From Patescibacteria group bacterium (GTDB taxonomy: Bacteria; Patescibacteriota; JACPGU01): 64,000 bases of DNA. Positions 13,400 to 57,946 of the stretch are shown in pieces; positions within the stretch are counted from its first letter, which is position 1; each line of letters begins with the position of its first letter. Position numbers and translations under genes: made by a program. The DNA lies in NCBI GenBank assembly GCA_022703645.1, contig JAKLDG010000001.1:443277-507276 (forward strand). Direction: 5' to 3'. Under the pieces are notes generated by a model that did not search any database, was not told the DNA's origin, and saw nothing but the letters and a program-made list of their open reading frames with translations.

Positions 13400-13428
13400 A
13401 AGCGACCCCGCAAGGGCCGCTTTTTTAT
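13400..13428 (+). terminator. rho-independent terminator
   Basis: GCGACCC-CGCAA-GGGCCGC hairpin (one mismatch) followed by TTTTTT. Confidence 0.65.
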
Positions 13429-14168
13429 TTCAAAATTTTCTTTAAATCCTCCGGCAAATCCGAATTGAAAAATAATTTCTTTCCAGTAACAGGATGTTTG
13501 AACGTTAACTCCGTTGCATGCAAGAATTGCCGGCTTAGTCCAATATTTTTTGAAAATACCTCCGAATCTCTATTTTTATATACCTGATCCCCAACTACCG
13601 GATGTCCAATCGCAAACATATGCGCGCGAATTTGATGAGTGCGTCCGGTCTCAATTTGAACTTTCAATAACGATATTGGATATTGGATATCGGATATCGG
13701 ATATTTTTTGTAATCGGATACTTCGTAGTGAGTTATTGCTAATTTTGCATCCTTTGATTTAGAAGCCACAAATCTTGTTCTATTTTTCAGATCCCGCTTT
13801 AATGCAATATTTATAGTCCCCTTCTTTGGTTCCAGCTTTCCAAATACTAATGCTGAGTAAATTTTCAAAACTCTATGAGAAGCAAATTGGTTTTGTAGAT
13901 TTATGAGAGCCTCTTTTGTCTTTGCGATGACCATTAAACCCGATGTATCGCGGTCAAGCCGATGGACTATACCGGATCTGGGCAGATCGATTCCAAAGTC
14001 TTTTTTCAATATAGTTTCAAGCGTTTGGTCATCTTTTTTTTGTGATTCAACAATAAGACCGGCTGGCTTGTTAATAACAAGTAAGCATGGATCTTGATAA
14101 ACAATGTTTAAATTTTCTTTAGCCATTAGTTGCAAAAAAATACTCAATGCCCAATTTCCAATACCCAA
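13425..14168 (-). CDS. RluA-family 23S rRNA pseudouridine synthase
   Basis: 247 aa. 'HRLDRDTSGLMVIAK' catalytic-Asp motif, 'VYQDPCLLVINKPAG', 'THQIRAHM'. Contains an in-frame heptamer repeat at 13667-13705. Confidence 0.85.
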   Translation of the reverse strand: MGIGNWALSIFLQLMAKENLNIVYQDPCLLVINKPAGLIVESQKKDDQTLETILKKDFGIDLPRSGIVHRLDRDTSGLMVIAKTKEALINLQNQFASHRVLKIYSALVFGKLEPKKGTINIALKRDLKNRTRFVASKSKDAKLAITHYEVSDYKKYPISDIQYPISLLKVQIETGRTHQIRAHMFAIGHPVVGDQVYKNRDSEVFSKNIGLSRQFLHATELTFKHPVTGKKLFFNSDLPEDLKKILK

Positions 14169-14230
14169 TTAGATATTAAATCATTGGATATTGATTGAAT
14201 ATTGAGTATTGGTTATTGGATATTATTAAC

Positions 14231-14908
14231 TTATTTATTCTTTCCGTTCTTTTTCTTCTTCTTGAAATTTTTATCTATAATTTTGAAAGCTTCTTCAGCT
14301 GTATTTACAAGCTCAAATAGTTTCAAATCTGCTTTGTCGATCGTTGCATAATCATCTAACATTTTTTCTTTTAGTACATCAATAAATGGTTTCCAAAAAT
14401 CTTTTCCTATCAATATCAGAGGTATACTTTCAATTTTTTTTGTCTGAACTAAAGTTACAATCTCAAAAAATTCATCAAAAGTACCATATCCGCCCGGAAA
14501 ATATACGAAAGCATTTGCTGAAAAACTCATACAAACTTTTCGCGTGAAAAAGTAATGAAAAGCCATTGATCTCTCGACATATGGATTTACCCTTTGTTCT
14601 TTTGGAAGTTGAATGTTTAATCCGATACTGTCCCCTGGAGTTCCACCAAATGCCCCGCGATTAGCCGCTTCCATAATACCAGGACCTCCACCAGTTACCA
14701 CATGGTAGCCTTTTTTTGTTAACATTAGGGCTAATTTTTGTGTCTCTTTGTACCAGTGATTGGTTTCATGAATTCTTGCCGAACCGAAAATAGTAACCGA
14801 ATTTTTTAGTTTTGAAATAAATTCGAAACCATTTGTAAATTCACCCATAATGCGGAACATTCTCCATGCCGCATTTTCTGCATAATCAAATTCTTGTGGT
14901 GCTTTCAT
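14231..14908 (-). CDS. LOG-family (TIGR00730) Rossmann-fold nucleotide phosphoribohydrolase
   Basis: 225 aa. 'VTGGGPGIMEAANRGA', 'PGGYGTFDEFFEI' and 'HYFFTRK' are LOG/YvdD hallmarks. Confidence 0.8.
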   Translation of the reverse strand: MKAPQEFDYAENAAWRMFRIMGEFTNGFEFISKLKNSVTIFGSARIHETNHWYKETQKLALMLTKKGYHVVTGGGPGIMEAANRGAFGGTPGDSIGLNIQLPKEQRVNPYVERSMAFHYFFTRKVCMSFSANAFVYFPGGYGTFDEFFEIVTLVQTKKIESIPLILIGKDFWKPFIDVLKEKMLDDYATIDKADLKLFELVNTAEEAFKIIDKNFKKKKKNGKNK

Positions 14909-22453: not shown

Positions 22454-22480
22454 AATTATTTCTTTTTCTAAATTATTTTT

Positions 22481-22592
22481 GAAATTTTCAATTTTCAGTT
22501 TTCACTGTAGGTATCGCTTCGCGATATATTTAATTAAAAAATCGGATTATTGAAACATTGGTTGAAAATTGGAAATTGTAAAATTGAAAATT
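22481..22592. repeat. intergenic inverted-repeat element with central TATCGCTTCGCGATA hairpin, between porG and porD
   Basis: GAAATTTTCAATTTTCAGTTTTCAC ... TATCGC-TTC-GCGATA (22512-22526) ... TTGAAAATTGGAAATTGTAAAATTGAAAATTTG. Confidence 0.7.
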
Positions 22593-26852: not shown

Positions 26853-29162
26853 TTAATCTTTTTTCTCCTCTTCCTTGTTTTCTTGATTTTTTGTTTTTAT
26901 GTTTTCTTGCCCCTTAGTCGGATCTTCCCAACTTGCCCATTTACAATCAGGATAAGCGGAACATCCCCAGAATTTTTTGCGGCGTTTTGTAAATTTTACA
27001 ACAACATCACCTTTGCCGCAGTCTGGACACTTCATATCAAGTTTTTGCTCATTCATAGACTTTACATTTTTGCATTTTGGGTAAGCCGAACAAGCCAGAA
27101 ATTTTCCAAATCGTCCTTGCTTGATTACCATTTCAGAACCGCATTTTTCGCATTTTCCTCCGTTAGATTCTTTAACTGCCTCCGCTTCTTCTTTCGTTTC
27201 TTCGAGAGGCTGAGTATGTTTGCAATCCGGGAATCCTGTACAAGCAAGAAATTTACCGAACCGTCCAAATTTTTCTTTCAGCGGTTTCCCGCACTTTGGA
27301 CACATTATATCAGTAATTTTCTCTTCTCCCATAATATCTTCTTTTGAAATATCTTTATCTTTTTCTTCCAGATTTTTTTCAAATGGTCCATAGAAATCTT
27401 TAATCATTTTGTGCCAATCCTCTTTGCCTTCTGCGATATCATCAAATTCTTCTTCTACCTTCGCTGTAAAACCAATATCAACTATCTGCGGAAAATGTTC
27501 TACCAAAACATCATTCACGATTAATCCAATTTCTTGCGGATGAAATTTTTTCTCAATTAGTGTCACATATCCCCTATCTTGAATTGTCGCAAGAGTCGGA
27601 GCGTATGTGGATGGACGTCCGATTTCATTTTTTTCGAGTTCTTTTACCAGAGATGCTTCGGTAAATCTTGGCGGCGGTTGAGTAAATTTTTGTTGAGGAT
27701 CTAGATTTACCAGATCAAGATTATCCTTTTCATTAAGAGGTGGTAAAAATCCTTCTTTATCCTCTTCATCGATCTTGTCACCTTCGTCAATATCCTCTAT
27801 ATATACCTTTATAAAACCGGGAAATTTTACCACTGAACCTGTAGCGCGGAACATATAGTTTTTCGCATTAATATCTACCGATGTAGTGTCCATAACGGCC
27901 GGAACCATTTGAGATGCAACGGCTCTTTTCCAGATGAGAGTGTATAGACGAATCTGATCTTTATCTAGATATGCTTCTACATCATCAGGAGACAATTCCG
28001 GATGAGATGGGCGGATAGCTTCATGCGCTTCCTGCGCGCCCTTTGATTTATTTTTATAAAAATTTGCGTTATCCGGCAAGTATTCTTTGCCAAACTTATC
28101 ATTTATTTGTTGGCGAATAGCGGTTAGTGCTTCGCTCGCTAAGTTTAGCGAATCAGTACGCATATATGTTATCAAACCAAGATGTCCATGGGAACCCAAA
28201 TTCATACCTTCATAAAGCCTTTGCGCCACCATCATAGTTTTCTTTGCAGAGAACCCAAGTTTGCGCGCTGCTTCCTGCTGAAGTGTTGAGGTAGTAAATG
28301 GCGGAGATGGATAGCGGTTTTTTTCTTTCCTGCGAACTTCACCAACTACATAATCAGCCTTCTCTAATTCATTTAAAATCTGATCCGCCTGTTCTTTATT
28401 GACTACTTTTAATTCTTTACCATCCTTCTTAATCAATTTCGCTTGAAATTTTTCTTCTTGTTTTTTTGCTTTTTTGCTTTCTTGTTTAATTAATTCCGCT
28501 ATCAATTCCCAATATTCTTCAGGATTAAACGCCTGAATTTCGCGTTCTCTTTCAACAACTAATCGAACCGCAACAGATTGAACTCTGCCGGCTGAAAGAC
28601 CTTTTTTTACTTTTCTCCATAGAAATGGTGAAAGTTTGTAACCTACAAGACGGTCAAGGACTCTGCGAGCCTGCTGAGCATTCACAAGATTTATATCTAG
28701 TTCTCTTGGATTTGCAACCGCATCCTTCACCGCACTATCAGTTATCTGGTTAAATACAATCCTATGAACTTTAATATCATCGCTTGGCGATTCCTTAACT
28801 TTTAACTTTGAACTTTTAACTTTTAACTTCTTGGCATTTAATCCTAATGCAATACTTAAATGCCAAGCGATGGCCTCTCCTTCTCGGTCCAAGTCCGTCG
28901 CAAGATAAAGAGTTTTCACTTTTTTCAGGTCTTCTTTGAGTGCCGATACAGTTTTCTTCGCTTTTGTCGGTATTATATATTGAGGCTCAAAATCGTGTTC
29001 AACATCAACACCGAGCTTGCTTTTCGGCAAATCGCGAACATGTCCGTAACTCGCACGAACCATAAAATCTTTCCCCAATATTTTTTCGATCGTTCCTGCT
29101 TTTGCTGGGGACTCTACAATTACCAAGTTCTTACTCATAAAAGTATTTATTATAATTTTCAA
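26853..29162 (-). CDS. topA: DNA topoisomerase I with C-terminal zinc-ribbon repeats
   Basis: 769 aa. 'LVIVESPAKAGTIEKILG' Toprim, 'YLATDLDREGEAIAWH', catalytic Tyr region 'GLITYMRTDS', C4 zinc ribbons (CPKCGK...C..C). In-frame (AACTTTT)n repeat at 28786-28830. Confidence 0.92.
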   Translation of the reverse strand: MKIIINTFMSKNLVIVESPAKAGTIEKILGKDFMVRASYGHVRDLPKSKLGVDVEHDFEPQYIIPTKAKKTVSALKEDLKKVKTLYLATDLDREGEAIAWHLSIALGLNAKKLKVKSSKLKVKESPSDDIKVHRIVFNQITDSAVKDAVANPRELDINLVNAQQARRVLDRLVGYKLSPFLWRKVKKGLSAGRVQSVAVRLVVEREREIQAFNPEEYWELIAELIKQESKKAKKQEEKFQAKLIKKDGKELKVVNKEQADQILNELEKADYVVGEVRRKEKNRYPSPPFTTSTLQQEAARKLGFSAKKTMMVAQRLYEGMNLGSHGHLGLITYMRTDSLNLASEALTAIRQQINDKFGKEYLPDNANFYKNKSKGAQEAHEAIRPSHPELSPDDVEAYLDKDQIRLYTLIWKRAVASQMVPAVMDTTSVDINAKNYMFRATGSVVKFPGFIKVYIEDIDEGDKIDEEDKEGFLPPLNEKDNLDLVNLDPQQKFTQPPPRFTEASLVKELEKNEIGRPSTYAPTLATIQDRGYVTLIEKKFHPQEIGLIVNDVLVEHFPQIVDIGFTAKVEEEFDDIAEGKEDWHKMIKDFYGPFEKNLEEKDKDISKEDIMGEEKITDIMCPKCGKPLKEKFGRFGKFLACTGFPDCKHTQPLEETKEEAEAVKESNGGKCEKCGSEMVIKQGRFGKFLACSAYPKCKNVKSMNEQKLDMKCPDCGKGDVVVKFTKRRKKFWGCSAYPDCKWASWEDPTKGQENIKTKNQENKEEEKKD

Positions 29163-29272
29163 TTATCAATTCACAATTTTCAATCAATGATACAATTAAC
29201 AATTTTCAAATTTAAGAATTGAAACATTGAAAATTTATTGAGAACTGAAAATTGAAAATTGAAAATTTTTTA
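29161..29272. repeat. intergenic inverted-repeat element of (AATTTTC)n / (GAAAATT)n heptamer arrays between dprA and topA
   Basis: AATTTTCAATCAATGATACAATTAACAATTTTCAAATTT ... GAAAATTGAAAATTGAAAATTTTTT. Confidence 0.65.
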
Positions 29273-34566: not shown

Positions 34567-34675
34567 TCATAAATATTATACCAGTATCAATGTAAAACTC
34601 AAGGTTATCGTTAGTTAAATATAGCCCAAGAGTACTAAATCCTATCATCCTAATCCCCGTAACCTATTCTAAAAG

Positions 34676-34859: not shown

Positions 34860-35460
34860 AGCACATTCATAAAAAATCTATATCACTTCTCACTAACTTT
34901 AGACATATGGAGTTGGTAGAGAAAGTGCTAGTCACGAAGAGTCAGTCTGGTCTCAAAGAAAATTTATTTCCTTTGTCTCCTCTCTAACTTTCTCGCGGTT
35001 AGCACTCTCTCTACCAATACTTAGAAAAAATTTTCAAGAGGTTCGCCTTTTGAAAAAATATCAAAGTTGTTTGTGGAGAGAAAACTACTTGCGAACTCTC
35101 AACGCAAGTTGAGATTCGGAAAATCTTTTAGCCCTCCTTTAAGAAATTCCTACTCGCAAGTAGTACTCTCCCCATTAGCACCCACGCACTAGCTCAGAAA
35201 TCCTATTGGAGGAGCTAGGGTCAAAATAATGTCGCCTAGACAGAATAGTTTGGGAATTCTGCTAGTGAGGAGTAATTTGGACGGATCGTCCCGGATGTAA
35301 AGGTCTCATAGCCTACCAAAATAAAAATAAAACTATAAATACATTAATATGAGGCCTCCCCACCCAGGAGGATCCGTCCAAAACATCTACACCACCTCCA
35401 AATCTCTCAACACCGAAGTAGCACCTTCGGAGCCAGCGCCAAGCTGGCTACTACTCGTAC
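34860..35460. ncRNA. candidate structured noncoding RNA of unknown family (ORF-free, hairpin-rich, GC-elevated region between mfd and pth)
   Basis: No ORF of 60 aa or more on any frame across ~960 bp. Multiple GNRA-capped hairpins (TCTCAAC-GCAA-GTTGAGA; TACTC-GCAA-GTAGTA). Local helices CCGAAG..CTTCGG and AGCCAGC-GCCAA-GCTGGCT. Long-range complementarities GGTAGAGAAAGTGCTAG / TTAGCACTCTCTCTACC and GACGGATC...GATCCGTC. Region ends just upstream of a perfect bidirectional terminator. Confidence 0.35.
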
Positions 35461-35465
35461 AAAAA

Positions 35466-35485
35466 AACCGGTCATTCGACCGGTT
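35466..35485 (-). terminator. bidirectional rho-independent terminator (pth terminator; may also close the upstream structured region)
   Basis: AACCGGTC-ATTC-GACCGGTT perfect 8-bp stem flanked by A7 upstream and TTTTTATTTTT downstream. Confidence 0.75.
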
Positions 35486-35533
35486 TTTATTTTTGATTTT
35501 TTGATTTCTTGCTTTCTTGTTTAATTGTCTCCC

Positions 35534-36097
35534 CTACATTCCCAAATACTGAATTCCATTTATCAATAAATCCTCAATGACGTTTTCAATAATCTCCTTT
35601 TCACTAACCTTTAGAGCCTGCAAAACCCAATCTTCAATCTTTGTTAATTCATCCTCTGGTCTGCCGATACCGATTCTGACGCGTATAAAGCGCTCTGTAC
35701 CGAGATTATCTATAATAGACTGTAATCCTCGATGGCCCGCAGAAGAACCTTCAGCGCGCATTTTTATCTTCCCCAAAGGAATATCTATGTCATCGTATAT
35801 AACTATCAAGTCTTTTTCTGGGTTTACTTTATAAAAATCAACTACTTTACGCACTGCAATTCCGGAATTATTCATAAAAGTCTGCGGTTTGACGAGGATT
35901 ATATCTTCCTTGCCCAATTTTAACTTTGCAACCTCCGCATCAAACTTTTTTTCAAGCTTAAATTCTTGGATAATCGAAACCTTGCTTTCTTGTTTTTTTG
36001 TTTTATTGATTATTTGTTCCAACCCCAAAAACCCCACATTATGTCGTGTGTTTGTGTATTTCTTCCCCGGATTTCCCAACCCAACTATTATTTTCAT
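35534..36097 (-). CDS. pth: peptidyl-tRNA hydrolase
   Basis: 187 aa. 'IIVGLGNPGKKYTNTRHNVGF', 'LGKIKMRAEGSSAGHRGLQSI'. Confidence 0.92.
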   Translation of the reverse strand: MKIIVGLGNPGKKYTNTRHNVGFLGLEQIINKTKKQESKVSIIQEFKLEKKFDAEVAKLKLGKEDIILVKPQTFMNNSGIAVRKVVDFYKVNPEKDLIVIYDDIDIPLGKIKMRAEGSSAGHRGLQSIIDNLGTERFIRVRIGIGRPEDELTKIEDWVLQALKVSEKEIIENVIEDLLINGIQYLGM

Positions 36098-36101
36098 ATA
36101 T

Positions 36102-36114
36102 TGTCGCGAAGCGA
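36102..36114. promoter_or_regulatory. GTCGC-GAA-GCGAC mini-hairpin immediately upstream of the pth start codon
   Basis: Same GCGAAGC-centred palindrome as in the elements at 15880 and 22512; 5 nt from the pth ATG. Confidence 0.4.
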
Positions 36115-36136
36115 CTCCAAAACTTTTAACTTCTTC

Positions 36137-36445: not shown

Positions 36446-36464
36446 TTAAATACCTCCGGAATTT

Positions 36465-36565
36465 TTAATTTTTAATTTTTGAATTTTTAAAGAATGCTTT
36501 AAATTCAAATTTTTAAAAATTAAGATTTATTTATAAAATTAAAAATTACAAAATTAAAAATTTAG
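36465..36565. repeat. AT-only tandem repeat tract (AATTTTT/AAAAATT units) between rplI and ybaB
   Basis: TTAATTTTTAATTTTTGAATTTTTAAAG...AATTAAAAATTACAAAATTAAAAATTT. Confidence 0.5.
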
Positions 36566-36567
36566 AA

Positions 36568-38340: not shown

Positions 38341-38344
38341 TTTA

Positions 38345-38386
38345 TTCTAGATTCTAGATTCTAAATTCTAGATTCTAGATTCTTGC
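38345..38386. repeat. (TTCTAGA)6 heptamer microsatellite
   Basis: TTCTAGATTCTAGATTCTAAATTCTAGATTCTAGATTCTTG between the peptidase stop codon and its terminator hairpin. Confidence 0.8.
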
Positions 38387-41615: not shown

Positions 41616-41678
41616 CGCATTTCGTTATTACTTTTTTACCATTATACATCAAATTACAATTGAGGCAAGGCAGCAAAT

Positions 41679-41802
41679 GTCAAATTTCAAATTTCCAATT
41701 TCAAATTAATGACTAAATTTCAAATGATAAAATAATACGCTCATAAATTTGACATTAAACATTTGACATTGATTTGACATTTGTCATTTTTAATTTGTCA
41801 TT
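41679..41802. repeat. (CAAATTT)n heptamer array followed by five direct TTGWCAT repeats upstream of ftsE
   Basis: CAAATTTCAAATTTCCAATTTCAAATT ... CATTTGACATTAAACATTTGACATTGATTTGACATTTGTCATTTTTAATTTGTCATT. Confidence 0.6.
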
Positions 41803-42858: not shown

Positions 42859-43015
42859 AAAAAATTAAAATATTATGAAAATATTACAGAATATTTCAAA
42901 ATATTATTTCTTTAATATTTTACAATATTTTACAATATTTTCAAACCGCTTTTACCAAAACAAAAAACCTCAGGTTTTAACCTAAGGTTTTTTGTCTCAC
43001 TTAATGCGAGTGTAA

Positions 43016-45073
43016 TTATCTATTGATTACTTTCAAAGCTTTGTCCAAATTACCACTTTCTTTCATATAGATGTAAGAAGCGATAGAGATGAATGCAGCT
43101 AATAGTATCAATGCAAGAACTGTTTCAGAAGTTCCTGAGCTTGGCAAAGTTGTTACAGCTCCACCACCCAAATTGATGGTAACTAAGCTTGAAACAGATG
43201 TAATGCCATCAGCGGTACCGTTTGCAGAGTAAGTCAATTGAGAGATATTACTTGGAGTATCACTCTTCACCTTTGCAGAAAATTCATAATACCCAGTAGC
43301 ACCCACGCTTAAGTCGCCTAGACTTATACCATTTGAGAATGAGCTGTCAGCAGTAGAGGTTGTGTTACCAGATAAAACTACTTTTACTGAACCAGCAACA
43401 AACTCCATATTTTTTGGCAACGCATTTGTTAACTTAACGTTAGCAAGCTCAGCATTTCCAACGTTTGCGAAATCAACATGGAATTTGATAACATCGCCTC
43501 TGTTTGCAGAAACAACATTATTGAATCCAATTGATTTTGCAGCTGTTGAATTATATGCAGTAGCATTTACGAATAAGTTCTTTGCAGCTGTAGGTTCACC
43601 GCTTACTGTAATAATACCATTGTTATCTGATAATGAAATTCCAGAACCAATTACTTGGTTGTCAGCAGCATATGTACCAGCAGCAGTGTTACCAGAAACC
43701 TTAACTTTATAAGTTAAGTAAAACCAGTGAGCACCTGCTAAATCAGGTAATATAACACCATTACCAGCACCATTGATAGCGTCAGCTAATGGCATAACTT
43801 GGTCAGTACCTGTCGCATCTTCATAATACAATTTTGAAAATCCTGGAACGTATTCAATTCCAGCTGGCATTATAGCGCGAGCGTGAAGAATTGTAGCAGC
43901 TGAGCTACCACGGTTTGTGATAGTCATTCTGTAGATTAATTCGTCGCCTGGGTTTGCATTAACGCTTTGTGTGTAAGCTTTGTCTCCCTTTGTAAGATTA
44001 TACAAAGATGAAGCCAAAGTTACATTTGTGTTGATAGTTGTACCAACAGCAATCAAGCCATTGTTATCTGATAATGAAATTCCAGAACCAATTACTTGGT
44101 TGTCAGCAGCATATGTACCAGCAGCAGTGTTACCAGAAACCTTAACTTTATAAGTTAAGTAAAACCAGTGAGCACCTGCTAAATCAGGTAATATAACACC
44201 ATTACCAGCACCATTGATAGCGTCAGCAATTGGAATAACTTGGTCAGTACCTGTCGCATCTTCATAATACAATTTTGCAAATCCTGGAACGTATTCAATT
44301 CCAGCTGGCATTATAGCGCGAGCGTGAAGAATTGTAGCAGCTGAGCTACCACGGTTTGTGATAGTCATTCTGTAGATTAATTCGTCGCCAGCAGATGCAT
44401 TAACGCTAGGGTTATAAGCAGTCTCACCTTTTGTTAAATTGTATAGAGATGATGCAAGATATACTTGTGGTTGGCTAGTATTTGTATTGTCACCAACGCT
44501 TGAAGTAGCAGGAGTACCTGTCGTAACGCTTGCAGGTACGCTCGCGCCACCAGCAACAACTGATGCGTTATTTGCTGATAATGCAACTCCGCCATTTGCC
44601 ATTACCTGATTATCAGGGGCAAATGATCCGCTAGCAGCAGAAACAGTAGCTTTGTAAGTTACAAAAGCAGTAGTTCCAGCTGGAATGTCAATTCCAAGAG
44701 AAGTTCCTGCAGCTGAAGCGATAGCATCAGCAACTGGAGCTACTTTGTCAGCACCACTTAAATCTTTGTAATATACTTTTGAATATCCGGCAGTATATTG
44801 TAAACCGGCTGGCATAGTAACTCTTGCCATTACTCCTGTTGCAGGAGTTGCAGAACCATTAGTAATGTTCATTGCAAAAAGCACGCTATTACCATTAGCT
44901 GCATTGACAGAATTTGTCCATACCTTATTTCCAGATGTAATATTTGCTACAGCGGATGTCAAAGACAAACCGGCAGCAGATGTTGCAACTGGAGCAACAA
45001 TAGCGAAAGTCATAAGACCAATCGCTAAATAATTTATTAATTTTTTAATCATTTTTTCTCCTTTTGATAACAT
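43016..45073 (-). CDS. surface protein with DUF11-like repeat domains and LPXTG-like C-terminal sorting signal
   Basis: 685 aa. Signal peptide (probable start MIKKLINYLAIGLMTFAIVAPVATSAAG). Two near-identical ~147-aa internal repeats. C-terminus 'LPSSGTSETVLALILLAAFISIASYIYMKES' = LPxxG, hydrophobic span, charged tail. Confidence 0.7.
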   Translation of the reverse strand: MLSKGEKMIKKLINYLAIGLMTFAIVAPVATSAAGLSLTSAVANITSGNKVWTNSVNAANGNSVLFAMNITNGSATPATGVMARVTMPAGLQYTAGYSKVYYKDLSGADKVAPVADAIASAAGTSLGIDIPAGTTAFVTYKATVSAASGSFAPDNQVMANGGVALSANNASVVAGGASVPASVTTGTPATSSVGDNTNTSQPQVYLASSLYNLTKGETAYNPSVNASAGDELIYRMTITNRGSSAATILHARAIMPAGIEYVPGFAKLYYEDATGTDQVIPIADAINGAGNGVILPDLAGAHWFYLTYKVKVSGNTAAGTYAADNQVIGSGISLSDNNGLIAVGTTINTNVTLASSLYNLTKGDKAYTQSVNANPGDELIYRMTITNRGSSAATILHARAIMPAGIEYVPGFSKLYYEDATGTDQVMPLADAINGAGNGVILPDLAGAHWFYLTYKVKVSGNTAAGTYAADNQVIGSGISLSDNNGIITVSGEPTAAKNLFVNATAYNSTAAKSIGFNNVVSANRGDVIKFHVDFANVGNAELANVKLTNALPKNMEFVAGSVKVVLSGNTTSTADSSFSNGISLGDLSVGATGYYEFSAKVKSDTPSNISQLTYSANGTADGITSVSSLVTINLGGGAVTTLPSSGTSETVLALILLAAFISIASYIYMKESGNLDKALKVINR
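43617..44498. repeat. tandem duplication (2 x 441 bp) within the surface-protein gene
   Basis: 43617-44057 and 44058-44498 are nearly identical over ~330 bp (e.g. CCATTGTTATCTGATAATGAAATTCCAGAACCAATTACTTGG...GTTAAGTAAAACCAGTGAGCACCTGCTAAATCAGG), diverging towards the 3' ends. Period 441 = 147 codons, in frame. Confidence 0.85.
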
Positions 45074-45403
45074 TTTCGTCTATTCTTATTCTCGTGTCAT
45101 CGACCCTCACCAACCTGACACTTCAAAAAATCCCAAGACAAAAACGTACAAATTTAAGTTTATTATTATTTGTTAACTATTATTAATCTATTCTAAAAAA
45201 TATTTAATATAGATTATTATTTTAAGTTATCAAGTTTGTTTGCTCGCTAATTATCACTAATTAATCGCTAATTTCGCTAATGGATTCAAAATTACCCATT
45301 CGTGAAATTCGTGAAAAATTCGCGACAATTCGCATTTCTCTATTATATATATTCAGTTAAGGAAAACAAATTTTTTGCGAATACCTTTATAAAAAATATG
45401 AGT

Positions 45404-49496: not shown

Positions 49497-52400
49497 CTAA
49501 ACTACTGAATCATCGCAATATCTGGAGAATGGACAATTTTCACAGTCCATTTTCGATGGAGTAGCTGTAAATTCTTGCGCACGGATACCATTTGAAGCAC
49601 GAATAATATTTTCTTTTACTTTTTCCAGCGACGTTTCGGTCGGAGTAAATGCCCCAACGATACCATTCATGAGAAAGAAAAGCCCCACTCGTTCTGGCAA
49701 TTCCCCTGTTAATTCCTTTATCGCAAGGGCATAAACTCCCAGCTGAGTATTGTCACGCGCCCTATTGTCTGCTTTTTTCTGATCGTCAATCTCAGAAGTC
49801 TTGAAATCAATGATTCCCACTCCCCCATTTGAGGTTTTTTCGAGCGCGTCAATTCGCCCTTCGATAATATTATTTTCTATTTCAAATTTAAAAGGCTTTT
49901 CTATTTCTAAAACCTCAATATTGTTTGAATATTCTGCAACAAACTTTTTTATCACCCCAATACCTTCATCATATCGCTGCTTTTCGTGTTCTGCTGAGAT
50001 GAACCCCTCACTACTCCAGTTTTGTTTATAAATTTCTAAAAGCTGATCCATATTTAATGTTTTTGAATTTTGGATTTGTGATTTGTTTGTAATTTGTAAT
50101 TTGTCATTTGAAATTTTTGCCTTATAGTATTCTTCAATCACTTTGTGAATAGCGCGACCAAATATAATCTGATGATTGGTCATGAGCTTGATCGGAGTAA
50201 TGTGAATAAATTTATATTTGCGTGGACAAGTCAGGTAATCGTCCACTTCAGCGCGTGATAATCTCAATTTCTCATCCTTAAGTTTTAGTCTGGTTGAGTA
50301 AAGCGGAACTTCTTTTGGCGCAAAATGTTCTATTCGCTCGAGCTCCGTCTGCTTTGAATATTCCGGATTTACATTTTCCGTTCCAAGCGCTTCCACAACA
50401 AATCGGCTGATTTTTACTGATTTTTTTCCGCCATAATCACGACCAAATGTCAGATAAAGCCTTTCAGCTGCTCTGGTCATACCAACATAAAAAAGTCTGC
50501 GCTCTTCAGCAAGATGGAGAGTTTTGCTGTCCGGCTCATCCTCATTTTCGTCAACACCAACCCAACCACCTTTTAATTCTTTCGGAAACCTTATTGGGTC
50601 GCCCATATTTCTCGACGGAAATTTCGAATCAGAAAGTCCAACCATAAATACATATTTGAATTCCAGCCCCTTCGCGCCATGAATTGTCAGAATCTTTACT
50701 GCATCATATGTCGGATCGTCCATTTCATCCGTAGGATCTTCGCCGATTTCTAAGAGAAGGTTAAGATATTCCATAAATTTCTGAATACCAACATCCAGAT
50801 TTGCTTCTTGAAACCCAAGAATACGATCAAAAAAATGTGAAATAGAAACTATTTTTTCGCCTGAATTCATATCTCCTTTTTTCTCATTTGTCGCAAGCTT
50901 TTTCAGATATCCACTGTCTGAAATAAATTTGTAGAGAACTTCTCCCGCACTCGCAGTAATACTCTCTCTCCTAATATTTTGTAATATTTCTAATATTTCT
51001 TTAATATTTTCCAGATTCCCCTTTCCTAGGTCTTTTTCTAATACTTTTTCGTCTTCGGTTCTCAAGTACTCCTCAAGCGGAATGTTTTTTGATCGGACTT
51101 TGTGCAATACTACACTAATTCGGTCGAAATCAACCCCTACAAATTCCCCAACCAAGAGATTAAAAAGCGCTAGATTATCGGCTGGGTTTATTAATATTGA
51201 AAAGAAAGCGATCACATTTTTTATAATACTCTTACGAAAAAGCCCTTCGTTTCCCGTAAATAAATAAGGGATTTTTTTGCCAGATAGCGCGTTGGTAAAT
51301 GGTAAAGCCTGATTATTTGACCGAATCAAAATCGCAAAGTCTGAGTATTTAATTTCTTTATTAATTTCTTTTAATTTCCTAATTTCCTCTGCAACATTTG
51401 CTGCTTCCTCTGTAGCGTTTTCAAAGAAAAGCAATTCCGGTTTTTTGCCATTTTGCATGTTTGAATTTAACTTTTTATTGATACCATATTTTGTCTCAAG
51501 ACGATCTGGATTATTGAATTGAATTAATTTATAGCTCGCATCCAGTATTTCCTGAGTATTGCGATAATTTTCCGTTAAAACTACCTGTTTAGTATCCTCC
51601 CAATTTTCTTTAAATTCTAGAATATTTGAAATATCTGCCCCACGAAATTTGTAAATTGACTGGTCATCGTCCCCCACTACAGTAATAGTTGGTAAGTTAT
51701 AAGTTGTAAGTTGTAAGTTTTTAGGATTTTGAATTTTATTGGGTATTGGGCATTGGTCATTGGGAATTTCTAAGGTTAATACCTTTAGCAGTTCATTCTG
51801 CGCAAAATTCGTATCCTGAAATTCATCAACTAATATATATTTATACTTTTTGCGAAAGTTTGAGAGAAGCTGTTCTTTTTCTCTCAATGCTTTGTTCATA
51901 TTAAAAATCAGATCGCCAAAATCCATTCTATCATTGAGAGCCATCAGCTCCTGATATGTTTTATATGAATAAGCCAACTCCAATTGTTGCTCAGCATACT
52001 CTTTCTCAATTTTGCTATCAGCTTTATTTGAAAGATTCTGTGCAAATTCCAGGTATTGATAAGGACCAATAAGCTCGTCTTTGAGATGCGAGAAATGGTG
52101 GATCATATCTTGGACAAAACGCGTAGGATCCCCTAGCGGTCGGTAAACCTTCAGATTAAAATCAAATATATGATCACGAATAAATAATATCTGTTGTGGC
52201 TCGGTGAGAATCTTGAAAGCCGTGGAATATCCGAGAGAATATGCGTTTTCCCGCAAAAATTCTTCGGCTAGAGAATGAAAATTACACGCTTTTACGTCAT
52301 TGTATCCGTATGGTAAAACGATATCTAACCTTTCCTCCATCTCTGCCGCAGCTTTTTTCGTAAATGTGATTGCTAATATTTCCGATGGCTTGGCTTTTTT

Positions 52401-52547
52401 TTCGGAAATTAGATATGCGATTTTGCTGATTATTACTTTTGTTTTCCCGGTACCCGCTCCCGCCACCACCATAAGAGGGCCACCATCGTATGTGACAGCT
52501 TCCCTCTGCGCATCGTTCAACTCTTCAAGAATTTCTTTTGTTTGCAT
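49497..52547 (-). CDS. UvrD/PcrA-like superfamily-1 helicase fused to a C-terminal Fe-S PD-(D/E)XK (RecB/AddB/Cas4-type) nuclease
   Basis: 1016 aa. 'VVAGAGTGKTKVI' (motif I), 'VDEFQDTN' (II), 'VVGDDDQSIYKFRGA' (III), 'TENYRNTQEIL' (IV), 'IHGAKGLEF' and 'VGMTRAAE' (V-VI). C-terminal 'YLTCPRKYKF' + 'GRIDALEK...IIDFKTSE' + 'CENCPFSRYC' = Cys4 RecB-family nuclease. Two in-frame repeat-derived insertions at 50040-50110 and 51700-51790. Confidence 0.85.
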   Translation of the reverse strand: MQTKEILEELNDAQREAVTYDGGPLMVVAGAGTGKTKVIISKIAYLISEKKAKPSEILAITFTKKAAAEMEERLDIVLPYGYNDVKACNFHSLAEEFLRENAYSLGYSTAFKILTEPQQILFIRDHIFDFNLKVYRPLGDPTRFVQDMIHHFSHLKDELIGPYQYLEFAQNLSNKADSKIEKEYAEQQLELAYSYKTYQELMALNDRMDFGDLIFNMNKALREKEQLLSNFRKKYKYILVDEFQDTNFAQNELLKVLTLEIPNDQCPIPNKIQNPKNLQLTTYNLPTITVVGDDDQSIYKFRGADISNILEFKENWEDTKQVVLTENYRNTQEILDASYKLIQFNNPDRLETKYGINKKLNSNMQNGKKPELLFFENATEEAANVAEEIRKLKEINKEIKYSDFAILIRSNNQALPFTNALSGKKIPYLFTGNEGLFRKSIIKNVIAFFSILINPADNLALFNLLVGEFVGVDFDRISVVLHKVRSKNIPLEEYLRTEDEKVLEKDLGKGNLENIKEILEILQNIRRESITASAGEVLYKFISDSGYLKKLATNEKKGDMNSGEKIVSISHFFDRILGFQEANLDVGIQKFMEYLNLLLEIGEDPTDEMDDPTYDAVKILTIHGAKGLEFKYVFMVGLSDSKFPSRNMGDPIRFPKELKGGWVGVDENEDEPDSKTLHLAEERRLFYVGMTRAAERLYLTFGRDYGGKKSVKISRFVVEALGTENVNPEYSKQTELERIEHFAPKEVPLYSTRLKLKDEKLRLSRAEVDDYLTCPRKYKFIHITPIKLMTNHQIIFGRAIHKVIEEYYKAKISNDKLQITNKSQIQNSKTLNMDQLLEIYKQNWSSEGFISAEHEKQRYDEGIGVIKKFVAEYSNNIEVLEIEKPFKFEIENNIIEGRIDALEKTSNGGVGIIDFKTSEIDDQKKADNRARDNTQLGVYALAIKELTGELPERVGLFFLMNGIVGAFTPTETSLEKVKENIIRASNGIRAQEFTATPSKMDCENCPFSRYCDDSVV

Positions 52548-53038: not shown

Positions 53039-53446
53039 TTATTTTCTTGCTTGGTTGTCCAAAGCTTCATTTACCAGCTCATCGGCGAGTTTGTTTTTTT
53101 CTCTGGGAATGTGATGATAACTGACTTTTTTGAAATCGCCTTCGGCTTTTTTAACTTTTGCAAAAAGTTCTTTCAATTCTTCGTTTTTTACTTTATATTC
53201 CCCTCTTAATTGTTTCACAACCAATTCACTGTCAAGATTGCATTTTAATTCTTTTATACCCATTTTTGCTGCCACTTGCAATCCACCAAGAATTGCTCGG
53301 TATTCAGCTTGATTATTGGTCAGTGTGTCTCCGAGATATTTACCTTTTGCGAATATCACTTCACCGTCTTTTTTCAAAATAATTCCGACCGCGCCCGGTC
53401 CGGGATTACCGCGCGCTCCCCCATCTGTATATAATTCGTAATTCAT
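53039..53446 (-). CDS. rnhA: ribonuclease HI
   Basis: 135 aa. 'LYTDGGARGNPGPGAVG' (DxG), 'TNNQAEYRAILGGL' (E), 'DSELVVKQL' (D), 'HHIPREKNKLADELVNEA' (H...D). Confidence 0.88.
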   Translation of the reverse strand: MNYELYTDGGARGNPGPGAVGIILKKDGEVIFAKGKYLGDTLTNNQAEYRAILGGLQVAAKMGIKELKCNLDSELVVKQLRGEYKVKNEELKELFAKVKKAEGDFKKVSYHHIPREKNKLADELVNEALDNQARK

Positions 53447-53468
53447 AATTCCTCTTCTTTATTCGATA

Positions 53469-54077: not shown

Positions 54078-54174
54078 TCTAAAAGTTTATAATTTCTAAA
54101 TTATAAATTATAATTTCTAATTTGAGACTTTGACATTTTATTAGATATTATAATTTAGATATTAGACATTTCCT

Positions 54175-56694: not shown

Positions 56695-57909
56695 TTAATA
56701 AACACTTGATAATTGATATATCGGCATTATGATTGCTAAGACTAAGAAAAGTACCGCAACACCTACTATTAACATAATTATTGGTTCAAGCAATGCTGAG
56801 ATTCCTTTTAGAAGATTATTTGTATCTTGCTCATACATTCGAGAAACGTCAGAAAGTATTTTATCAAGCTGCCCTGTCTGCTCGCCCACCGCAATCATTG
56901 ACGATACTAAAGTTGGGAAAATCTTACTTTTCATCATCGGAGTTGATAGTGGTATTCCTTTTTCGACCTCCAAGACCATATGCTTTAATTCTTTTTCAAC
57001 AATTGAATTTCCCAGCGAATCGCTAACCATAGATAGAGATTTGATGATCGGCACTCCTCCGCTAACAAGTAGCGACAGTGTTTTGGAAAAATTTGTTATG
57101 TAAATTCCCCTGTTAATGGTTTTGAAAACTGGCATATTTAGCGCAAGAAAAGCCACCACGTCTTTCCCGGTACTTGTAGCGGAAAGATATTTTATCAAAA
57201 CCCCAAGCCCGATAAGCAATACTATCAATATATACCAATAATTGACCATGAAATTACTTAGACCTATCATTATTTTTGTTAAAAAAGGAAGTTGCGCACC
57301 AGAACTGGTAAAAATATCCTGCAACTGTGGAATAATATACACTAACGCCAAAATTCCAACAGCCGCTACTACTCCAAGAATGAAGGCGGGATAAATCATT
57401 GCTCCTCTGAGTTTTGATTTCATTGCGTAGCTGCTTTCGAGCTGATCAGCCAGATCGAGTAACACTTTGTCGAGCTTACCGCTTGCTTCACCGGATTTAA
57501 CCATATTTATAAAAATCTGTGAAAAAACATCGGGAAATTGAGAAAGAGCAAAAGAAAAGCTCTTGCCATTTTCTATCAAGCCAATAAGCTTAATGATTAT
57601 CTCTGATAATTTTTTGTTTGGGGTTTGTTTGGTGAGATATTTAAGAGAGTCCATTAGGGGCATACCTGCATTAATCATCGTTGAGAGCTGACGTGCAAAA
57701 ATTGCTTTGTCTTTTGCCTTGATCCCACCGAAAAGACCAGAAGCATAAGAAACCACCCTCGCCTCAAACGAAAGAAATGGCTTTATCGTAATAACCGCAA
57801 GCTTATTGTATTTCAGGACATCTTCAGCTGATTCGATACTGTCAGCCTCAATAATGCCTTTTACAATCTTGCCAGCTTGATCCCGCGCTTCGTAAATGAA
57901 TTTATCCAT
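56695..57909 (-). CDS. pilC: type IV pilus assembly platform protein PilC (GspF family)
   Basis: 404 aa; duplicated GspF domains, three TM segments. Confidence 0.88.
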   Translation of the reverse strand: MDKFIYEARDQAGKIVKGIIEADSIESAEDVLKYNKLAVITIKPFLSFEARVVSYASGLFGGIKAKDKAIFARQLSTMINAGMPLMDSLKYLTKQTPNKKLSEIIIKLIGLIENGKSFSFALSQFPDVFSQIFINMVKSGEASGKLDKVLLDLADQLESSYAMKSKLRGAMIYPAFILGVVAAVGILALVYIIPQLQDIFTSSGAQLPFLTKIMIGLSNFMVNYWYILIVLLIGLGVLIKYLSATSTGKDVVAFLALNMPVFKTINRGIYITNFSKTLSLLVSGGVPIIKSLSMVSDSLGNSIVEKELKHMVLEVEKGIPLSTPMMKSKIFPTLVSSMIAVGEQTGQLDKILSDVSRMYEQDTNNLLKGISALLEPIIMLIVGVAVLFLVLAIIMPIYQLSSVY

Positions 57910-57946
57910 TTTGATTTCTTGTTTTTTTGCTTTATTGCTTAATTGT

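What the first reader, a model, noticed from the sequence alone, without database searches (positions are those of the whole stretch)
50040..51790. The same heptamer-repeat family is inserted in-frame inside housekeeping coding sequences (UvrD-like helicase, topA, rluA)
Inside the UvrD-like gene, 51700-51790 reads GTAAGTTATAAGTTGTAAGTTGTAAGTTTTTAGGATTTTGAATTTTATTGGGTATTGGGCATTGGTCATTGGGAATTTC. This encodes a ~25-aa insertion (…PNKIQNPKNLQLTTYNLPTIT…) between helicase motifs II and III. A second tract, 50040-50110 (TTTGAATTTTGGATTTGTGATTTGTTTGTAATTTGTAATTTGTCATTTG), encodes QIQNSKTLN…. The ATTGGGT units match the reverse complement of the intergenic repeat at 14150-14225 (CCAATTTCCAATACCCAATT; CATTGGATATTG...TATTGGTTATTGGATATT). 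topA carries (AACTTTT)5 at 28786-28830 (encoding KVKSSKLKVK). rluA carries (TGGATAT/CGGATAT)4 at 13667-13705 (encoding YPISDIQYPIS). These tracts keep the reading frame open, so they look like tolerated insertions of a mobile or slippage-prone repeat. They are potentially phase- or length-variable.
Basis: seen in the sequence. Interest (0 to 1): 0.58.

Follow-up and report, generated by a model that had tools for sequence, protein, structure and literature searches.

The report
In-frame heptamer repeat tracts in housekeeping genes
Three essential-type genes of a tiny-genome (Patescibacteria/CPR) bacterium carry short runs of 7-base DNA repeats that are read through as extra floppy protein loops; they are tolerated DNA-level clutter from a repeat family that fills the spaces between genes, not on/off switches, and in relatives the same kind of repeat forms the ends of a small selfish gene cassette.

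Summary
Four tracts with 7-nt periodicity lie in frame in a UvrD/PcrA-type helicase-nuclease (two tracts), topA and an RluA-family gene. Period-7 arrays are far above chance in the window (11 vs 0) and about 20-fold denser in this CPR clade than in 1.3 Mb of control loci. Distant orthologues lack the tracts. Clade members carry tracts of different length and unit at the same loop sites, or none. The tracts share exact 12-mers with intergenic arrays. Coding arrays are stop-free on the sense strand (18/22 vs 18/62 intergenic strand-units). The topA array has a TAA-to-TCA change exactly where a stop would fall in frame. In the helicase, both tracts map to low-confidence loops of the structure model.

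Phase variation is not supported. The tracts are degenerate and identical in all assemblies held. The rluA tract keeps its copy number in a species 27% diverged.

Best reading: heptanucleotide arrays grown by tandem duplication and filtered by selection. A rival is that they are solo arms of an element.

New lead: in relatives, and on Nostoc, Calothrix and Picosynechococcus plasmids, S23p/four-helix-bundle genes are bracketed by inverted heptamer arrays. The Coxiella 23S IVS also carries tandem heptamers.

The parts
49497..52547 (-). UvrD/PcrA-type helicase fused to a PD-(D/E)XK nuclease, 1016 aa; host gene of two tracts
   Evidence: Pfam PF00580, PF13361 and PF12705. PcrA 1pjr E=4e-73.
51686..51776 (-). 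Helicase tract 1. About 13 heptamer units in one register (AAATTCC, CAATGAC, CAATGCC, CAATACC, CAATAAA ... CAACTTA x2, TAACTTA), encoding residues about 259-286 between motifs II and III.
   Evidence: Neighbouring units differ by 2.0 bases, and units 4 or more apart by about 4.7-5. pLDDT is below 50 for residues 263-283. PcrA has about 6 residues there against about 31.
50060..50117 (-). Helicase tract 2. (ACAAATT/ACAAATC-type) units encoding KISNDKLQITNKSQIQNSK at the start of the nuclease domain; +14 aa (42 nt = 6 units) relative to L003 and L005.
   Evidence: pLDDT is below 50 for residues 820-828.
26853..29138 (-). topA (type IA DNA topoisomerase), host gene
   Evidence: Pfam Toprim, Topoisom_bac and Zn_ribbon_Top1.
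28787..28839 (-). topA tract (AAGTTAA)x5 just after the Toprim domain, encoding NAKKLKVKSSKLKVKES. The third unit is AGTTCAA where AGTTAAA would put TAA in frame.
   Evidence: The tract is absent in P0122, P0123, P0126, P0127 and the outgroups.
13425..14126 (-). RluA-family pseudouridine synthase, host gene
   Evidence: Pfam PF00849.
13663..13715 (-). rluA tract (ATATCCG/ATATCCA)x4.7 encoding KKYPISDIQYPIS
   Evidence: The same unit count is seen in L112 (tract 89% identical, gene 73%). Outgroups lack it.
14140..14240 (.). Intergenic inverted pair of CCAATA-type heptamer arrays upstream of rluA; shares the exact 12-mer CCAATACCCAAT with helicase tract 1
41673..41802 (.). Intergenic inverted pair (GTCAAAT/GACAAAT units); shares the exact 12-mer AATGACAAATTA with helicase tract 2
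   Evidence: (I16).
36098..36136 (.). ybaB/pth spacer holding AAGTTAAAAGTT (the topA unit) next to the hairpin GTCGCTTCGCGAC
53431..53451 (-). Solo (GAATTAT)x3 array at the pilin/RNase H junction. It supplies the RNase H start (MNYELY...). L005 and L091 carry an S23p/IVP cassette at this junction. The L091 cassette (and the L003 one, which lies at a different junction) has TIRs of this unit type; the L005 cassette uses AACTTAC.
22477..22583 (.). Gene-less inverted pair (AATTTTC)n / (GAAAATT)n with the ATCGCGAAGCGAT hairpin between the arms
   Evidence: z = -2.6; I24.
29154..29267 (.). Gene-less inverted pair of AATTTTC-type arrays upstream of topA (57-nt arms)
   Evidence: I1.
36460..36567 (.). 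Gene-less inverted pair (AATTTTT)n / (AAAAATT)n
   Evidence: I7, I10.
54083..54171 (.). Gene-less inverted pair (TAAATTA-type) between two pilin genes. The left arm is about 95% identical to L005; the site is empty in L003.
   Evidence: I4.
38344..38383 (.). One-armed intergenic array (ATTCTAG)x5.7 just after a stop codon and before a terminator-like hairpin. The same unit occurs at 5535-5553 inside a TraG/TrwB-like ORF.

Best explanation
The four tracts are DNA-level repeat tracts, not designed protein features. In this Patescibacteria (CPR3/Microgenomates-like) clade, 7-nt units are tandemly duplicated (inferred: replication slippage or unequal exchange), building arrays all over the genome. 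Most arrays lie between genes.

Inside genes an array survives only under four conditions:
- (a) The net length change is a multiple of 3. Because 7 and 3 are coprime, the array is read in all three frames in turn and yields a 7-residue peptide period, for example (AAATCNC)3 = K-S-Q-I-x-N-x.
- (c) It falls in a surface loop that tolerates a disordered insert.
- (d) It then decays by point mutation, which stabilises it.

The tracts therefore lengthen loops of the helicase, topA and RluA without a dedicated function. They turn over on the time scale of species, not of cell generations.

Shown: periodicity, excess, lineage specificity, sense-strand stop filter, loop location, identity across assemblies, and 63-nt and 42-nt indels between close species.

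Inferred: slippage as the generating step; neutrality; whether the first units came from A-rich codons in place or from an arm of the clade's inverted-heptamer elements.
For: Periodicity and excess:
- 11 vs 0 arrays in the window.
- Clade 1.77 per 10 kb against 0.084 per 10 kb in 81 control loci.
- Only lags 7-9 give segments.

In-place growth:
- The whole 91-nt helicase tract keeps one register, and neighbouring units are the most alike.
- The empty site in L003 already reads AAATCAAAAATTGCC, a proto-unit.

Lineage specificity and turnover.
- L088 vs L089 topA (92% aa) differ by a clean 63-nt = 9x7 gap. An orthologous array differs in every unit, (AAAAATC)5 vs (AAGAATC)4.5, which indicates concerted change.
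- Site 2 is +42 nt in the window and in L092.

Selection filter:
- Sense-strand stop-free units 18/22 in ORFs, against 4/22 antisense and 18/62 intergenic strand-units; Fisher p = 3e-5.
- The topA unit 3 TAA-to-TCA change.
- Arrays are about 13-fold rarer per base in coding DNA (5 in 56 kb vs 9 in 7.5 kb).

Loop location: pLDDT below 50 at residues 263-283 and 820-828; PcrA alignment gap.

Structure: the helicase and topA tracts do not fold, z about 0.

Known precedent: heptameric SSRs are over-represented in several bacteria, mostly non-coding (PMC4692102).
Against: - The tract shared by the window and L005 helicases is 38/39 identical (AATCCTAAAAACTTACAACTTACAACTTAYAACTTACCA). The two genes are only 66.7% identical, and closer relatives carry other tracts. 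This places the tract in the top 0.23% of 42-nt windows.
- The rluA tract is likewise better conserved than its gene, 89% vs 73%. Neutral clutter should diverge faster, so concerted evolution, constraint or copying from elsewhere must be invoked.
- The same units recur at unrelated loci and genomes. AACTTAC flanks the L005 S23p gene. QYPIS occurs in the P0002 helicase and in the window rluA.
- In relatives, arrays abut small GC hairpins in a recurring layout, which hints at discrete elements.
- No mechanism explains why the step is 7 nt (and sometimes 8).
Confidence: 0.58

Rival explanations
1. The coding tracts are solo arms, or fragments, of a mobile element family whose terminal inverted repeats are heptamer arrays. 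The full form carries an S23p/IVP four-helix-bundle gene. Gene-less inverted pairs are its miniature derivatives. The tracts were inserted rather than grown in place, and survived only where they were in frame and stop-free, like Rickettsia palindromic elements.
For: - 5 of 5 PF05635 genes in relatives are bracketed by 31-39-nt inverted heptamer arrays, 349-392 nt apart. These are among the longest such inverted repeats in each locus. The genes sit at different places in syntenic genomes.
- The L005 cassette uses the AACTTAC unit that also forms the helicase tract in L005 and in the window.
- The window and L005 share near-identical tracts or elements at two sites that are empty or different in closer relatives.
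- The L090 gene-less pair shares a 23-mer with the window/L005 pilin-spacer element but lies at another locus.
- Most intergenic arrays in the window come as inverted pairs.
- The same architecture appears on Nostoc, Calothrix and Picosynechococcus plasmids and in the Coxiella IVS (PMC4990558).
Against: - The window's coding tracts are one-armed and unstructured.
- They have no target duplication.
- They differ from each other in unit and length.
- They show a within-tract gradient typical of local duplication.
- Self-BLAST of the window finds no dispersed long copies of them.
- No S23p gene or Y1 transposase lies in the 64-kb window.
- A metagenome scan for one array+hairpin composite found no further copies.
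Confidence: 0.27
2. The tracts are contingency loci. Slippage changes the repeat number at high frequency and switches or tunes the genes (phase or length variation).
For: The unit length is not a multiple of 3, and the tracts are tandem. Heptanucleotide SSRs do drive phase variation in Haemophilus (PMC8262952 and PMC12721329, listed).
Against: - The tracts are interrupted, at 83-92% matches.
- The host genes are housekeeping genes, and the tracts sit mid-gene.
- Sequences are identical in all assemblies held, and there are no length variants in the 90% clusters.
- The rluA unit count is unchanged across species.
- One-unit changes would truncate topA or the helicase.
Confidence: 0.03
3. The inserts are selected at the protein level, as flexible linkers or interaction loops with a 7-residue period. 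The DNA periodicity would then be a by-product.
For: The tracts are retained at the same loop sites across many clade members. Two tracts are better conserved than their genes.
Against: - The same units occur in non-coding DNA on either strand.
- The peptide sequence at one site differs completely between close relatives, and some relatives have no insert at all.
- The model gives disordered loops.
- The period is exact in DNA, not in chemistry.
Confidence: 0.07

Closest known systems
Heptameric simple sequence repeats / STRR of heterocystous cyanobacteria and Xanthomonas (Mazel et al. 1990 from memory; Rehm et al. 2015, PMC4692102)
   Same: Both are tandem 7-nt units with several unit families per genome. 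They are dispersed, strongly over-represented, mostly intergenic and close to gene ends, and rare on the coding strand. They often occur as inverted pairs. In Nostoc pNPUN02 the only strong period-7 arrays in 50 kb are one gene-flanking pair and one gene-less pair.
   Different: Here the units are AT-rich (AAWTYNC-like) rather than G-rich, so a G-quadruplex is not possible. The host is a 0.87-Mb CPR genome. In-frame copies sit inside core enzymes and are the main source of protein length differences between close species.
Rickettsia palindromic elements (RPE) inserted in frame in protein genes (review PMC10969869)
   Same: Non-coding-type repeats are found in frame inside unrelated housekeeping genes. 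They are tolerated at surface positions and add peptide segments.
   Different: RPEs are discrete elements of about 150 bp with conserved sequence and palindromic structure. The tracts here are 35-90 nt, one-armed, differ in unit and length, and show internal 7-nt periodicity.
23S rRNA intervening sequences carrying an S23p ORF (Coxiella, Leptospira; PMC4990558)
   Same: In relatives, an S23p/PF05635 ORF is bounded by terminal inverted repeats. In Coxiella, tandem heptamers (GACAGAT x2-3, variable between strains) lie directly upstream of the ORF. In the CPR relatives and in Nostoc the inverted repeats are heptamer arrays that run into the start and stop codons.
   Different: The cassettes here lie between protein genes, not in rRNA. 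The window itself holds no S23p gene. RNase III processing was not tested.
Phase-variable SSR contingency loci (e.g. the Haemophilus heptanucleotide repeats; PMC8262952 and PMC12721329, known here only as listed)
   Same: Tandem units whose length is not a multiple of three, in or near genes.
   Different: Those tracts are perfect, lie at promoters or 5' ends of surface or virulence genes, and vary between isolates. None of this holds here.
Small dispersed repeats embedded in tandem heptamers in Nostoc (Elhai et al. 2008; the reference is confirmed, but the content is from memory because the paper is not held)
   Same: Short hairpin elements sit inside or beside heptamer arrays. Relatives show (CAAAAAT)5 + GTGGCTTCGCCAC (L005 helicase), (AAAAATC)5 + ATCGCTTCGCGAT (L088 topA) and L092 GTGCCTTCGGCAC, with a compensatory stem change.
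   Different: There is no sequence similarity to the cyanobacterial SDR families. The window's own coding tracts have no hairpin. The GCGAAGC core as such is not enriched in the window, at 8 vs 5.7.

Membership tests
Long simple sequence repeat (heptanucleotide SSR, STRR-like) | Head-to-tail copies of a 7-nt unit, 3 or more copies | tested here: met
   TRF gives 4.4-5.0 copies at 83-92% matches; lag-7 profile.
Long simple sequence repeat (heptanucleotide SSR, STRR-like) | Over-representation relative to chance and to other genomes | tested here: met
   11 vs 0 in shuffles; 1.77 vs 0.084 per 10 kb.
Long simple sequence repeat (heptanucleotide SSR, STRR-like) | Dispersed, mainly intergenic, depleted in coding DNA | tested here: met
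   9 arrays in 7.5 kb non-coding against 5 in 56 kb coding.
Long simple sequence repeat (heptanucleotide SSR, STRR-like) | Copy-number differences between related genomes | tested here: met
   Found between species: 63-nt and 42-nt indels and unit turnover. None found between assemblies of the same strain.
Cyanobacterial STRR families proper (STRR1-3) | Specific unit sequences (e.g. CCCCAGT; recalled) in Nostocales | tested here: not met
   Units here are AT-rich (ACAACTT, CCAATAC, ACAAATT, AAGTTAA, ATATCCA) in a Patescibacteria genome.
Phase-variable contingency locus | Uninterrupted repeat tract | tested here: not met
   All four tracts carry variant units.
Phase-variable contingency locus | Repeat-number polymorphism within a strain or population | tested here: inconclusive
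   There are no variants in 3 + 2 assemblies or in the 90% clusters. However, the assemblies may derive from the same reads, and no read-level data were available.
Phase-variable contingency locus | Located in the promoter or 5' end of a surface or accessory gene | tested here: not met
   The tracts are mid-gene in the helicase, topA and rluA.
RPE/MITE-type in-frame insertion | Discrete element of conserved length and sequence present at many loci | tested here: not met
   The tracts differ in unit and length, and no dispersed copies appear in the window self-comparison. Only 64 kb of the genome was seen.
RPE/MITE-type in-frame insertion | Terminal inverted repeats or palindromic fold | tested here: not met
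   The helicase and topA tracts give z about 0. rluA gives z = -2.5 only because GATATC is self-complementary.
RPE/MITE-type in-frame insertion | Target-site duplication | tested here: not met
   None at the clean L088/L089 63-nt gap.
RPE/MITE-type in-frame insertion | In-frame, at a structurally tolerant position | tested here: met
   Open frames; low-pLDDT loops.
S23p/IVP (PF05635) cassette with inverted-repeat ends (IVS-like) | PF05635 ORF between the arms | tested here: not met
   No PF05635 homologue in the window. The gene is present in relatives L003, L005, L088, L090 and L091.
S23p/IVP (PF05635) cassette with inverted-repeat ends (IVS-like) | Terminal inverted repeats forming a long stem | tested here: met
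   Met for the relatives' cassettes and for the gene-less pairs in the window. Not met for the coding tracts.
S23p/IVP (PF05635) cassette with inverted-repeat ends (IVS-like) | Excision of the RNA by RNase III | not testable with these tools
   Needs RNA end mapping.
REP/REPIN with RAYT | GTAG-led short palindrome, in inverted doublets, with a Y1 transposase gene in the genome | tested here: inconclusive
   Relatives have Y1_Tnp genes (L089, 25.8 bits against a cut-off of 23; L005 homologue). L088 has a GTAGGGGC... doublet inside mfd. In the window there are only small RTCGCTTCGCGAY hairpins and no Y1 gene. None of this is part of the coding tracts.

The most novel reading that the evidence does not exclude
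Heptamer arrays of the STRR type are not plain microsatellites. They would be the terminal inverted repeats of a widespread, unrecognised class of small selfish cassettes that carry an S23p/'four-helix-bundle' (PF05635) gene and are relatives of the 23S rRNA intervening sequences. Gene-less inverted heptamer pairs would be their miniature derivatives. Solo in-frame tracts in core genes, as in this window, would be their debris. This would tie together three observations:
- the CPR clade (5/5 cassettes);
- Nostocales, Calothrix and Picosynechococcus plasmids (in Nostoc pNPUN02 the only heptamer arrays in 50 kb are the cassette ends and one gene-less pair);
- the heptamers in the Coxiella IVS.

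It would give a testable origin for repeats that have been unexplained since 1990.
Probability: 0.3. Interest if true: 0.78.

Novelty: new variant of a known kind. Interest (0 to 1): 0.55.

Why it matters
For CPR genomics, these tracts are the main source of protein length differences between close species in this clade. Unexplained 'insertions' in CPR core proteins can therefore be read as DNA repeat debris rather than as adaptations. Alignments, trees and structure models should mask them.

For repeat biology, this is a clean natural experiment on what a coding sequence tolerates. A 7-nt unit is forced through all three frames. The survivors show the filter directly: the stop-free strand, a single stop-breaking change, and disordered loops.

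The side finding matters more if it holds. S23p/four-helix-bundle genes are bracketed by inverted heptamer arrays in a CPR clade and on cyanobacterial plasmids, and tandem heptamers lie upstream of the S23p ORF in the Coxiella IVS. This gives a concrete, checkable hypothesis for the origin of heptameric repeats (STRR). It also suggests what the very common but function-less PF05635 proteins are associated with.

Tried and rejected
I used those loci as controls. Clade DNA had to come from the look-up of encoding contigs.

2. I tested whether the stable mini-hairpin core GCGAAGC is enriched. It is not in the window, at 8 vs 5.7 expected. Only versions with an extended stem are commoner in the clade: 6 of 25 occurrences have 3 or more extra pairs, against 3 of 256 in controls. 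I kept this as a side note only.

3. A metagenome scan for the array+hairpin composite TTAGGTGTGSCTTCGSCAC gave 19 hits. Only one (L093, which matches the L092 helicase sequence at this site) is related; the rest are unrelated genomes. So this is not a high-copy conserved element.

4. I looked for strain-level copy-number variants. None were found. The ENA and JGI assemblies may share reads, so this is weak evidence.

5. Rfam and tRNA scans of the window found nothing.

6. Literature searches found no description of heptamer repeats in Patescibacteria or Microgenomates, and no link between S23p and heptamers other than the Coxiella IVS paper. Elhai et al. 2008 is not held.

7. I considered hairpin or terminator function, frameshift signals and assembly artefact for the coding tracts. 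The tracts do not fold. They are identical across assemblies and conserved in other species.
Full report
**Source and setting.** The window is 37% G+C, and almost all ORFs lie on the minus strand. The helicase, topA and rluA products are identical to proteins of a Patescibacteria MAG with an 867-kb contig. The nearest named relatives are 'candidate division CPR3' and 'Candidatus Microgenomates'.

**Check of the observation.**
- The minus-strand ORF 49497-52547 encodes a 1016-aa UvrD/PcrA-type helicase fused to a PD-(D/E)XK nuclease.
- ORF 26853-29138 is topA and 13425-14126 is an RluA-family synthase.
- Tandem Repeats Finder reports period-7 arrays at 51687-51719, 51738-51768, 50069-50116, 28795-28829 and 13672-13705.
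- A scoring scan finds 11 period-7 arrays in the window against none in 30 shuffles, while other periods give 0-3.
- A stricter lag test gives segments only at lags 7, 8 and 9.
- The claimed link to the intergenic repeat near 14.15 kb is correct. CCAATACCCAAT is exact in both places.
- AATGACAAATTA links helicase tract 2 to the 41.8-kb spacer, and AAGTTAAAAGTT links the topA tract to the 36.1-kb spacer.

**Anatomy of the tracts.**
- Helicase tract 1 is a single degenerate array of about 13 units in one 7-nt register. Lag-7 identity is 0.69. Adjacent units differ by 2.0 bases on average, and units four or more apart by about 4.7-5.
- Because 7 and 3 are coprime, an array is read in all three frames in turn and gives a 7-residue peptide period. 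The peptide K-S-Q-I-x-N-x, common in relatives, is simply (AAATCNC)3.
- In topA the unit AAGTTAA would place TAA in frame in every third unit. Exactly that unit reads AGTTCAA.
- The helicase and topA tracts have no secondary structure beyond chance. By contrast, the paired intergenic arrays fold.

**Lineage specificity.**
- In a 21-sequence helicase alignment, outgroups at 41-44% identity have nothing between the helix after motif II and the motif III strand. PcrA has about six residues where the window has about 31.
- Clade members at 51-79% identity carry inserts of different length and sequence at that site, or almost none (P0003, P0007, P0014). The same holds at the second site.
- topA and rluA behave in the same way.
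- Between close species nearly all indels of 3 residues or more are such tracts.
- At DNA level, L088 and L089 topA (92% protein identity) differ by a clean 63-nt gap, which is nine units. They also carry an orthologous array in which every unit differs, (AAAAATC)5 versus (AAGAATC)4.5.
- Site 2 is +42 nt in the window and in L092 relative to L003 and L005.

**Evidence for a selection filter.**
- Across 218 kb of clade DNA, 18 of 22 in-ORF arrays have a consensus unit free of stop codons on the sense strand. Only 4 of 22 are stop-free on the antisense strand, and 18 of 62 strand-units are stop-free for intergenic arrays (Fisher p = 3e-5, first seen).
- Arrays are about 13 times rarer per base in coding than in non-coding DNA of the window.
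- In an AlphaFold model built from the alignment (mean pLDDT 79.5), residues 263-283 and 820-828, the two tracts, are below 50.

**Phase variation.**
- The tracts are interrupted.
- They lie in the middle of housekeeping genes.
- They are identical in the other assemblies that hold them. The window equals L001 and L002 over 18.4 kb including several arrays, and L003 equals L004 over 18.9 kb.
- The 90%-identity clusters of the three proteins contain no length variants. The three rluA members differ only in start-codon choice.
- The rluA tract has the same number of units in L112, whose gene is 73% identical in DNA.
- Caveat: the ENA and JGI assemblies may come from the same reads, and no read-level data were available.

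**Clade-wide picture.** Period-7 arrays occur at 1.77 per 10 kb in clade loci against 0.084 per 10 kb in 1.31 Mb of 81 loci from other bacteria. The units are more alike than random 7-mers of the window, with mean minimal distance 2.40 against 3.12 +/- 0.12, and a loose AAWTYNC form. This null does not correct for the AT-richness of spacers. Most intergenic arrays form inverted pairs.

**What does not fit simple neutral slippage.**
- The window and L005 helicases share AATCCTAAAAACTTACAACTTACAACTTAYAACTTACCA (38/39). The genes are only 66.7% identical, and the closer relatives L003, L090 and L092 carry other tracts. This is among the best-conserved 0.23% of 42-nt windows in the gene.
- The pilin-spacer element is likewise about 95% identical between the window and L005, yet absent from L003.
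- In relatives, arrays abut short GC hairpins in a recurring layout. Examples are L005 helicase (CAAAAAT)5 + GTGGCTTCGCCAC, L092 + GTGCCTTCGGCAC with a compensatory stem change, and L088 topA (AAAAATC)5 + ATCGCTTCGCGAT. The last hairpin also stands in window spacers at 15.88 and 22.52 kb.
- A metagenome scan for one such composite found no further copies, so it is not a high-copy conserved element.

**Side finding.**
- Every PF05635 gene (23S rRNA IVS protein, S23p, 'four helix bundle protein') in the relatives is bracketed by inverted heptamer arrays that run into its start and stop codons. Each cassette has its own unit: TATGAAT, GTAAGTT, TAGCTTT or AAGATAT. The gene sits at different positions in otherwise syntenic genomes.
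- These pairs are among the longest inverted repeats at 300-400 nt spacing in each locus.
- The window has no such gene. It does have a solo (GAATTAT)3 array at the junction where L005 and L091 carry the cassette; the L091 cassette's TIRs are of this unit type.
- The L005 cassette uses the AACTTAC unit that also makes up the helicase tract.
- The Coxiella burnetii IVS is described as a selfish element with an S23p ORF and terminal inverted repeats that is cut by RNase III. It has two or three tandem heptamers just upstream of the ORF, varying between strains (PMC4990558).
- A tblastn of a CPR S23p protein against 72,556 plasmids hits 34 records, mostly Nostoc, Calothrix and Trichormus. From my own knowledge, these are the taxa in which STRR heptamers were first described.
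- In Nostoc punctiforme pNPUN02 and Nostoc C052 the gene is preceded by (AGTCAGG/AGTCAGA)x5 and followed by its reverse complement across the stop codon. Calothrix and Picosynechococcus show inverted heptamer ends too. PCC 7120 gamma and Riemerella are less clear.
- In 50 kb of pNPUN02 (59 genes) the only strong period-7 arrays are the cassette end and one gene-less inverted pair.
- I found no paper linking S23p genes to genome-wide heptamer repeats. The search covers open-access text only.

**Verdict.** The tracts are in-frame, lineage-specific, DNA-level repeat tracts tolerated in disordered loops of core enzymes. They are best explained by tandem duplication of 7-nt units followed by a strict coding filter (confidence about 0.6).

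The main rival is that they are solo arms of the clade's heptamer-ended cassettes (about 0.27). Phase variation (0.03) and protein-level function (0.07) are unlikely.

As a kind of thing they belong with heptameric SSRs (STRR-like), and in their effect on proteins with Rickettsia RPEs. They fail the defining tests for contingency loci, RPE/MITE elements and the cyanobacterial STRR families proper.

The most novel reading not excluded is that heptamer arrays in general are the inverted ends of S23p cassettes.

Noticed in passing
L091:8734-9182; L003:4232-4661; L005:5329-5766; L088:705-1146; L090:19308-19761; also L113/L116 (Nostoc), L114 (Calothrix), L117 (Picosynechococcus): Every PF05635 (S23p / 23S rRNA IVS protein / four-helix-bundle) gene is bracketed by 31-39-nt inverted heptamer arrays that include its start and stop codons. 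The gene lies at different positions in syntenic CPR genomes. The same layout is seen on cyanobacterial plasmids, and the Coxiella IVS has heptamers upstream of its S23p ORF (PMC4990558).
   Followed up: partly
window 20005-20062, 28449-28495, 33607-33665, 35483-35533, 57907-57951 (also 18741-18773, 26874-26909, 35982-36018): A second repeat family with an 8-nt period (sense strand AAGAAAAC / AAGAAAGC type). Several copies lie inside ORFs, where they encode K/E/Q/N-rich stretches, for example topA IKQESKKAKKQEEK and mfd EIKKTIKQENNKTKE. Others lie at gene ends. Lag-8 segments: 5, against none at lags 4-6 and 10-12.
   Followed up: no
window 15877-15895, 22510-22528, 36100-36118; L088:10699-10714; L005:7420-7436: The small hairpin RTCGC-TTC-GCGAY (GCGAAGC core) recurs in spacers next to heptamer arrays. 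The same 16-nt hairpin is an in-frame insert in L088 topA relative to L089. The core itself is not enriched in the window (8 vs 5.7), but versions with an extended stem are commoner in the clade than in controls.
   Followed up: partly
L089:334-888; L005:11401-12012; L088:3908-3965: Relatives encode an IS200/RAYT-like Y1 transposase (PF01797, 25.8 bits; 59% identical copy in L005). L088 has a REPIN-like doublet, GTAGGGGCGACC...GGTCGCCC / GGGCGAGCC...CGCCCCTAC, inside the mfd ORF. GC-rich peptide inserts such as VGAGLKPAHV and ATLRGRPNAGGHIGPPLR in relatives' proteins look like translations of such palindromes. No Y1 transposase gene was found in the window.
   Followed up: partly
window 51691-51729 vs L005:7447-7487; window 54078-54174 vs L005:4557-4688: A repeat tract and a spacer element are 90-97% identical between two species whose helicase genes are 66.7% identical in DNA. 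They are absent or different in closer relatives. This is unexplained; concerted evolution, constraint or transfer are possible.
   Followed up: partly
window 34567-35533: An ORF-poor gap of about 970 nt between mfd and pth holds three similar hairpins (34913-35017, 35074-35174, 35276-35382). A similar hairpin lies between pth and mfd in L089 (4334-4444). There is no Rfam family and no tRNA.
   Followed up: no
window 43617-44473: A tandem duplication of about 420 nt (92.6% identical) lies inside the DUF11/CLIPPER-domain surface protein gene 43016-45073. Contigs of the other assemblies end here.
   Followed up: no
window 1-64000: There is strong strand asymmetry. About 49 of 53 long ORFs are on the minus strand, and the plus strand has T>A (21426 vs 18753) and C>G (13459 vs 10362). 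This is reminiscent of the strand disparity reported for a Microgenomates genome (PMC7143001).
   Followed up: no
window 10012-10044, 42867-42941, 45244-45333: Arrays with periods of 9-11 nt (GATAATTCGA, AATATTTTAC, TCGCTAATTA / ATTCGCGAA) lie in spacers. CGAATTA-type repeats also fill spacers in L006 and L090.
   Followed up: no
L007:16373-16403: An outgroup genome (31% G+C; helicase 41% identical; contig titled only as a metagenome scaffold) has (AAATTCC)x4.4 inside its pheT gene. In-frame heptamer arrays may therefore not be confined to the CPR3-like clade.
   Followed up: no
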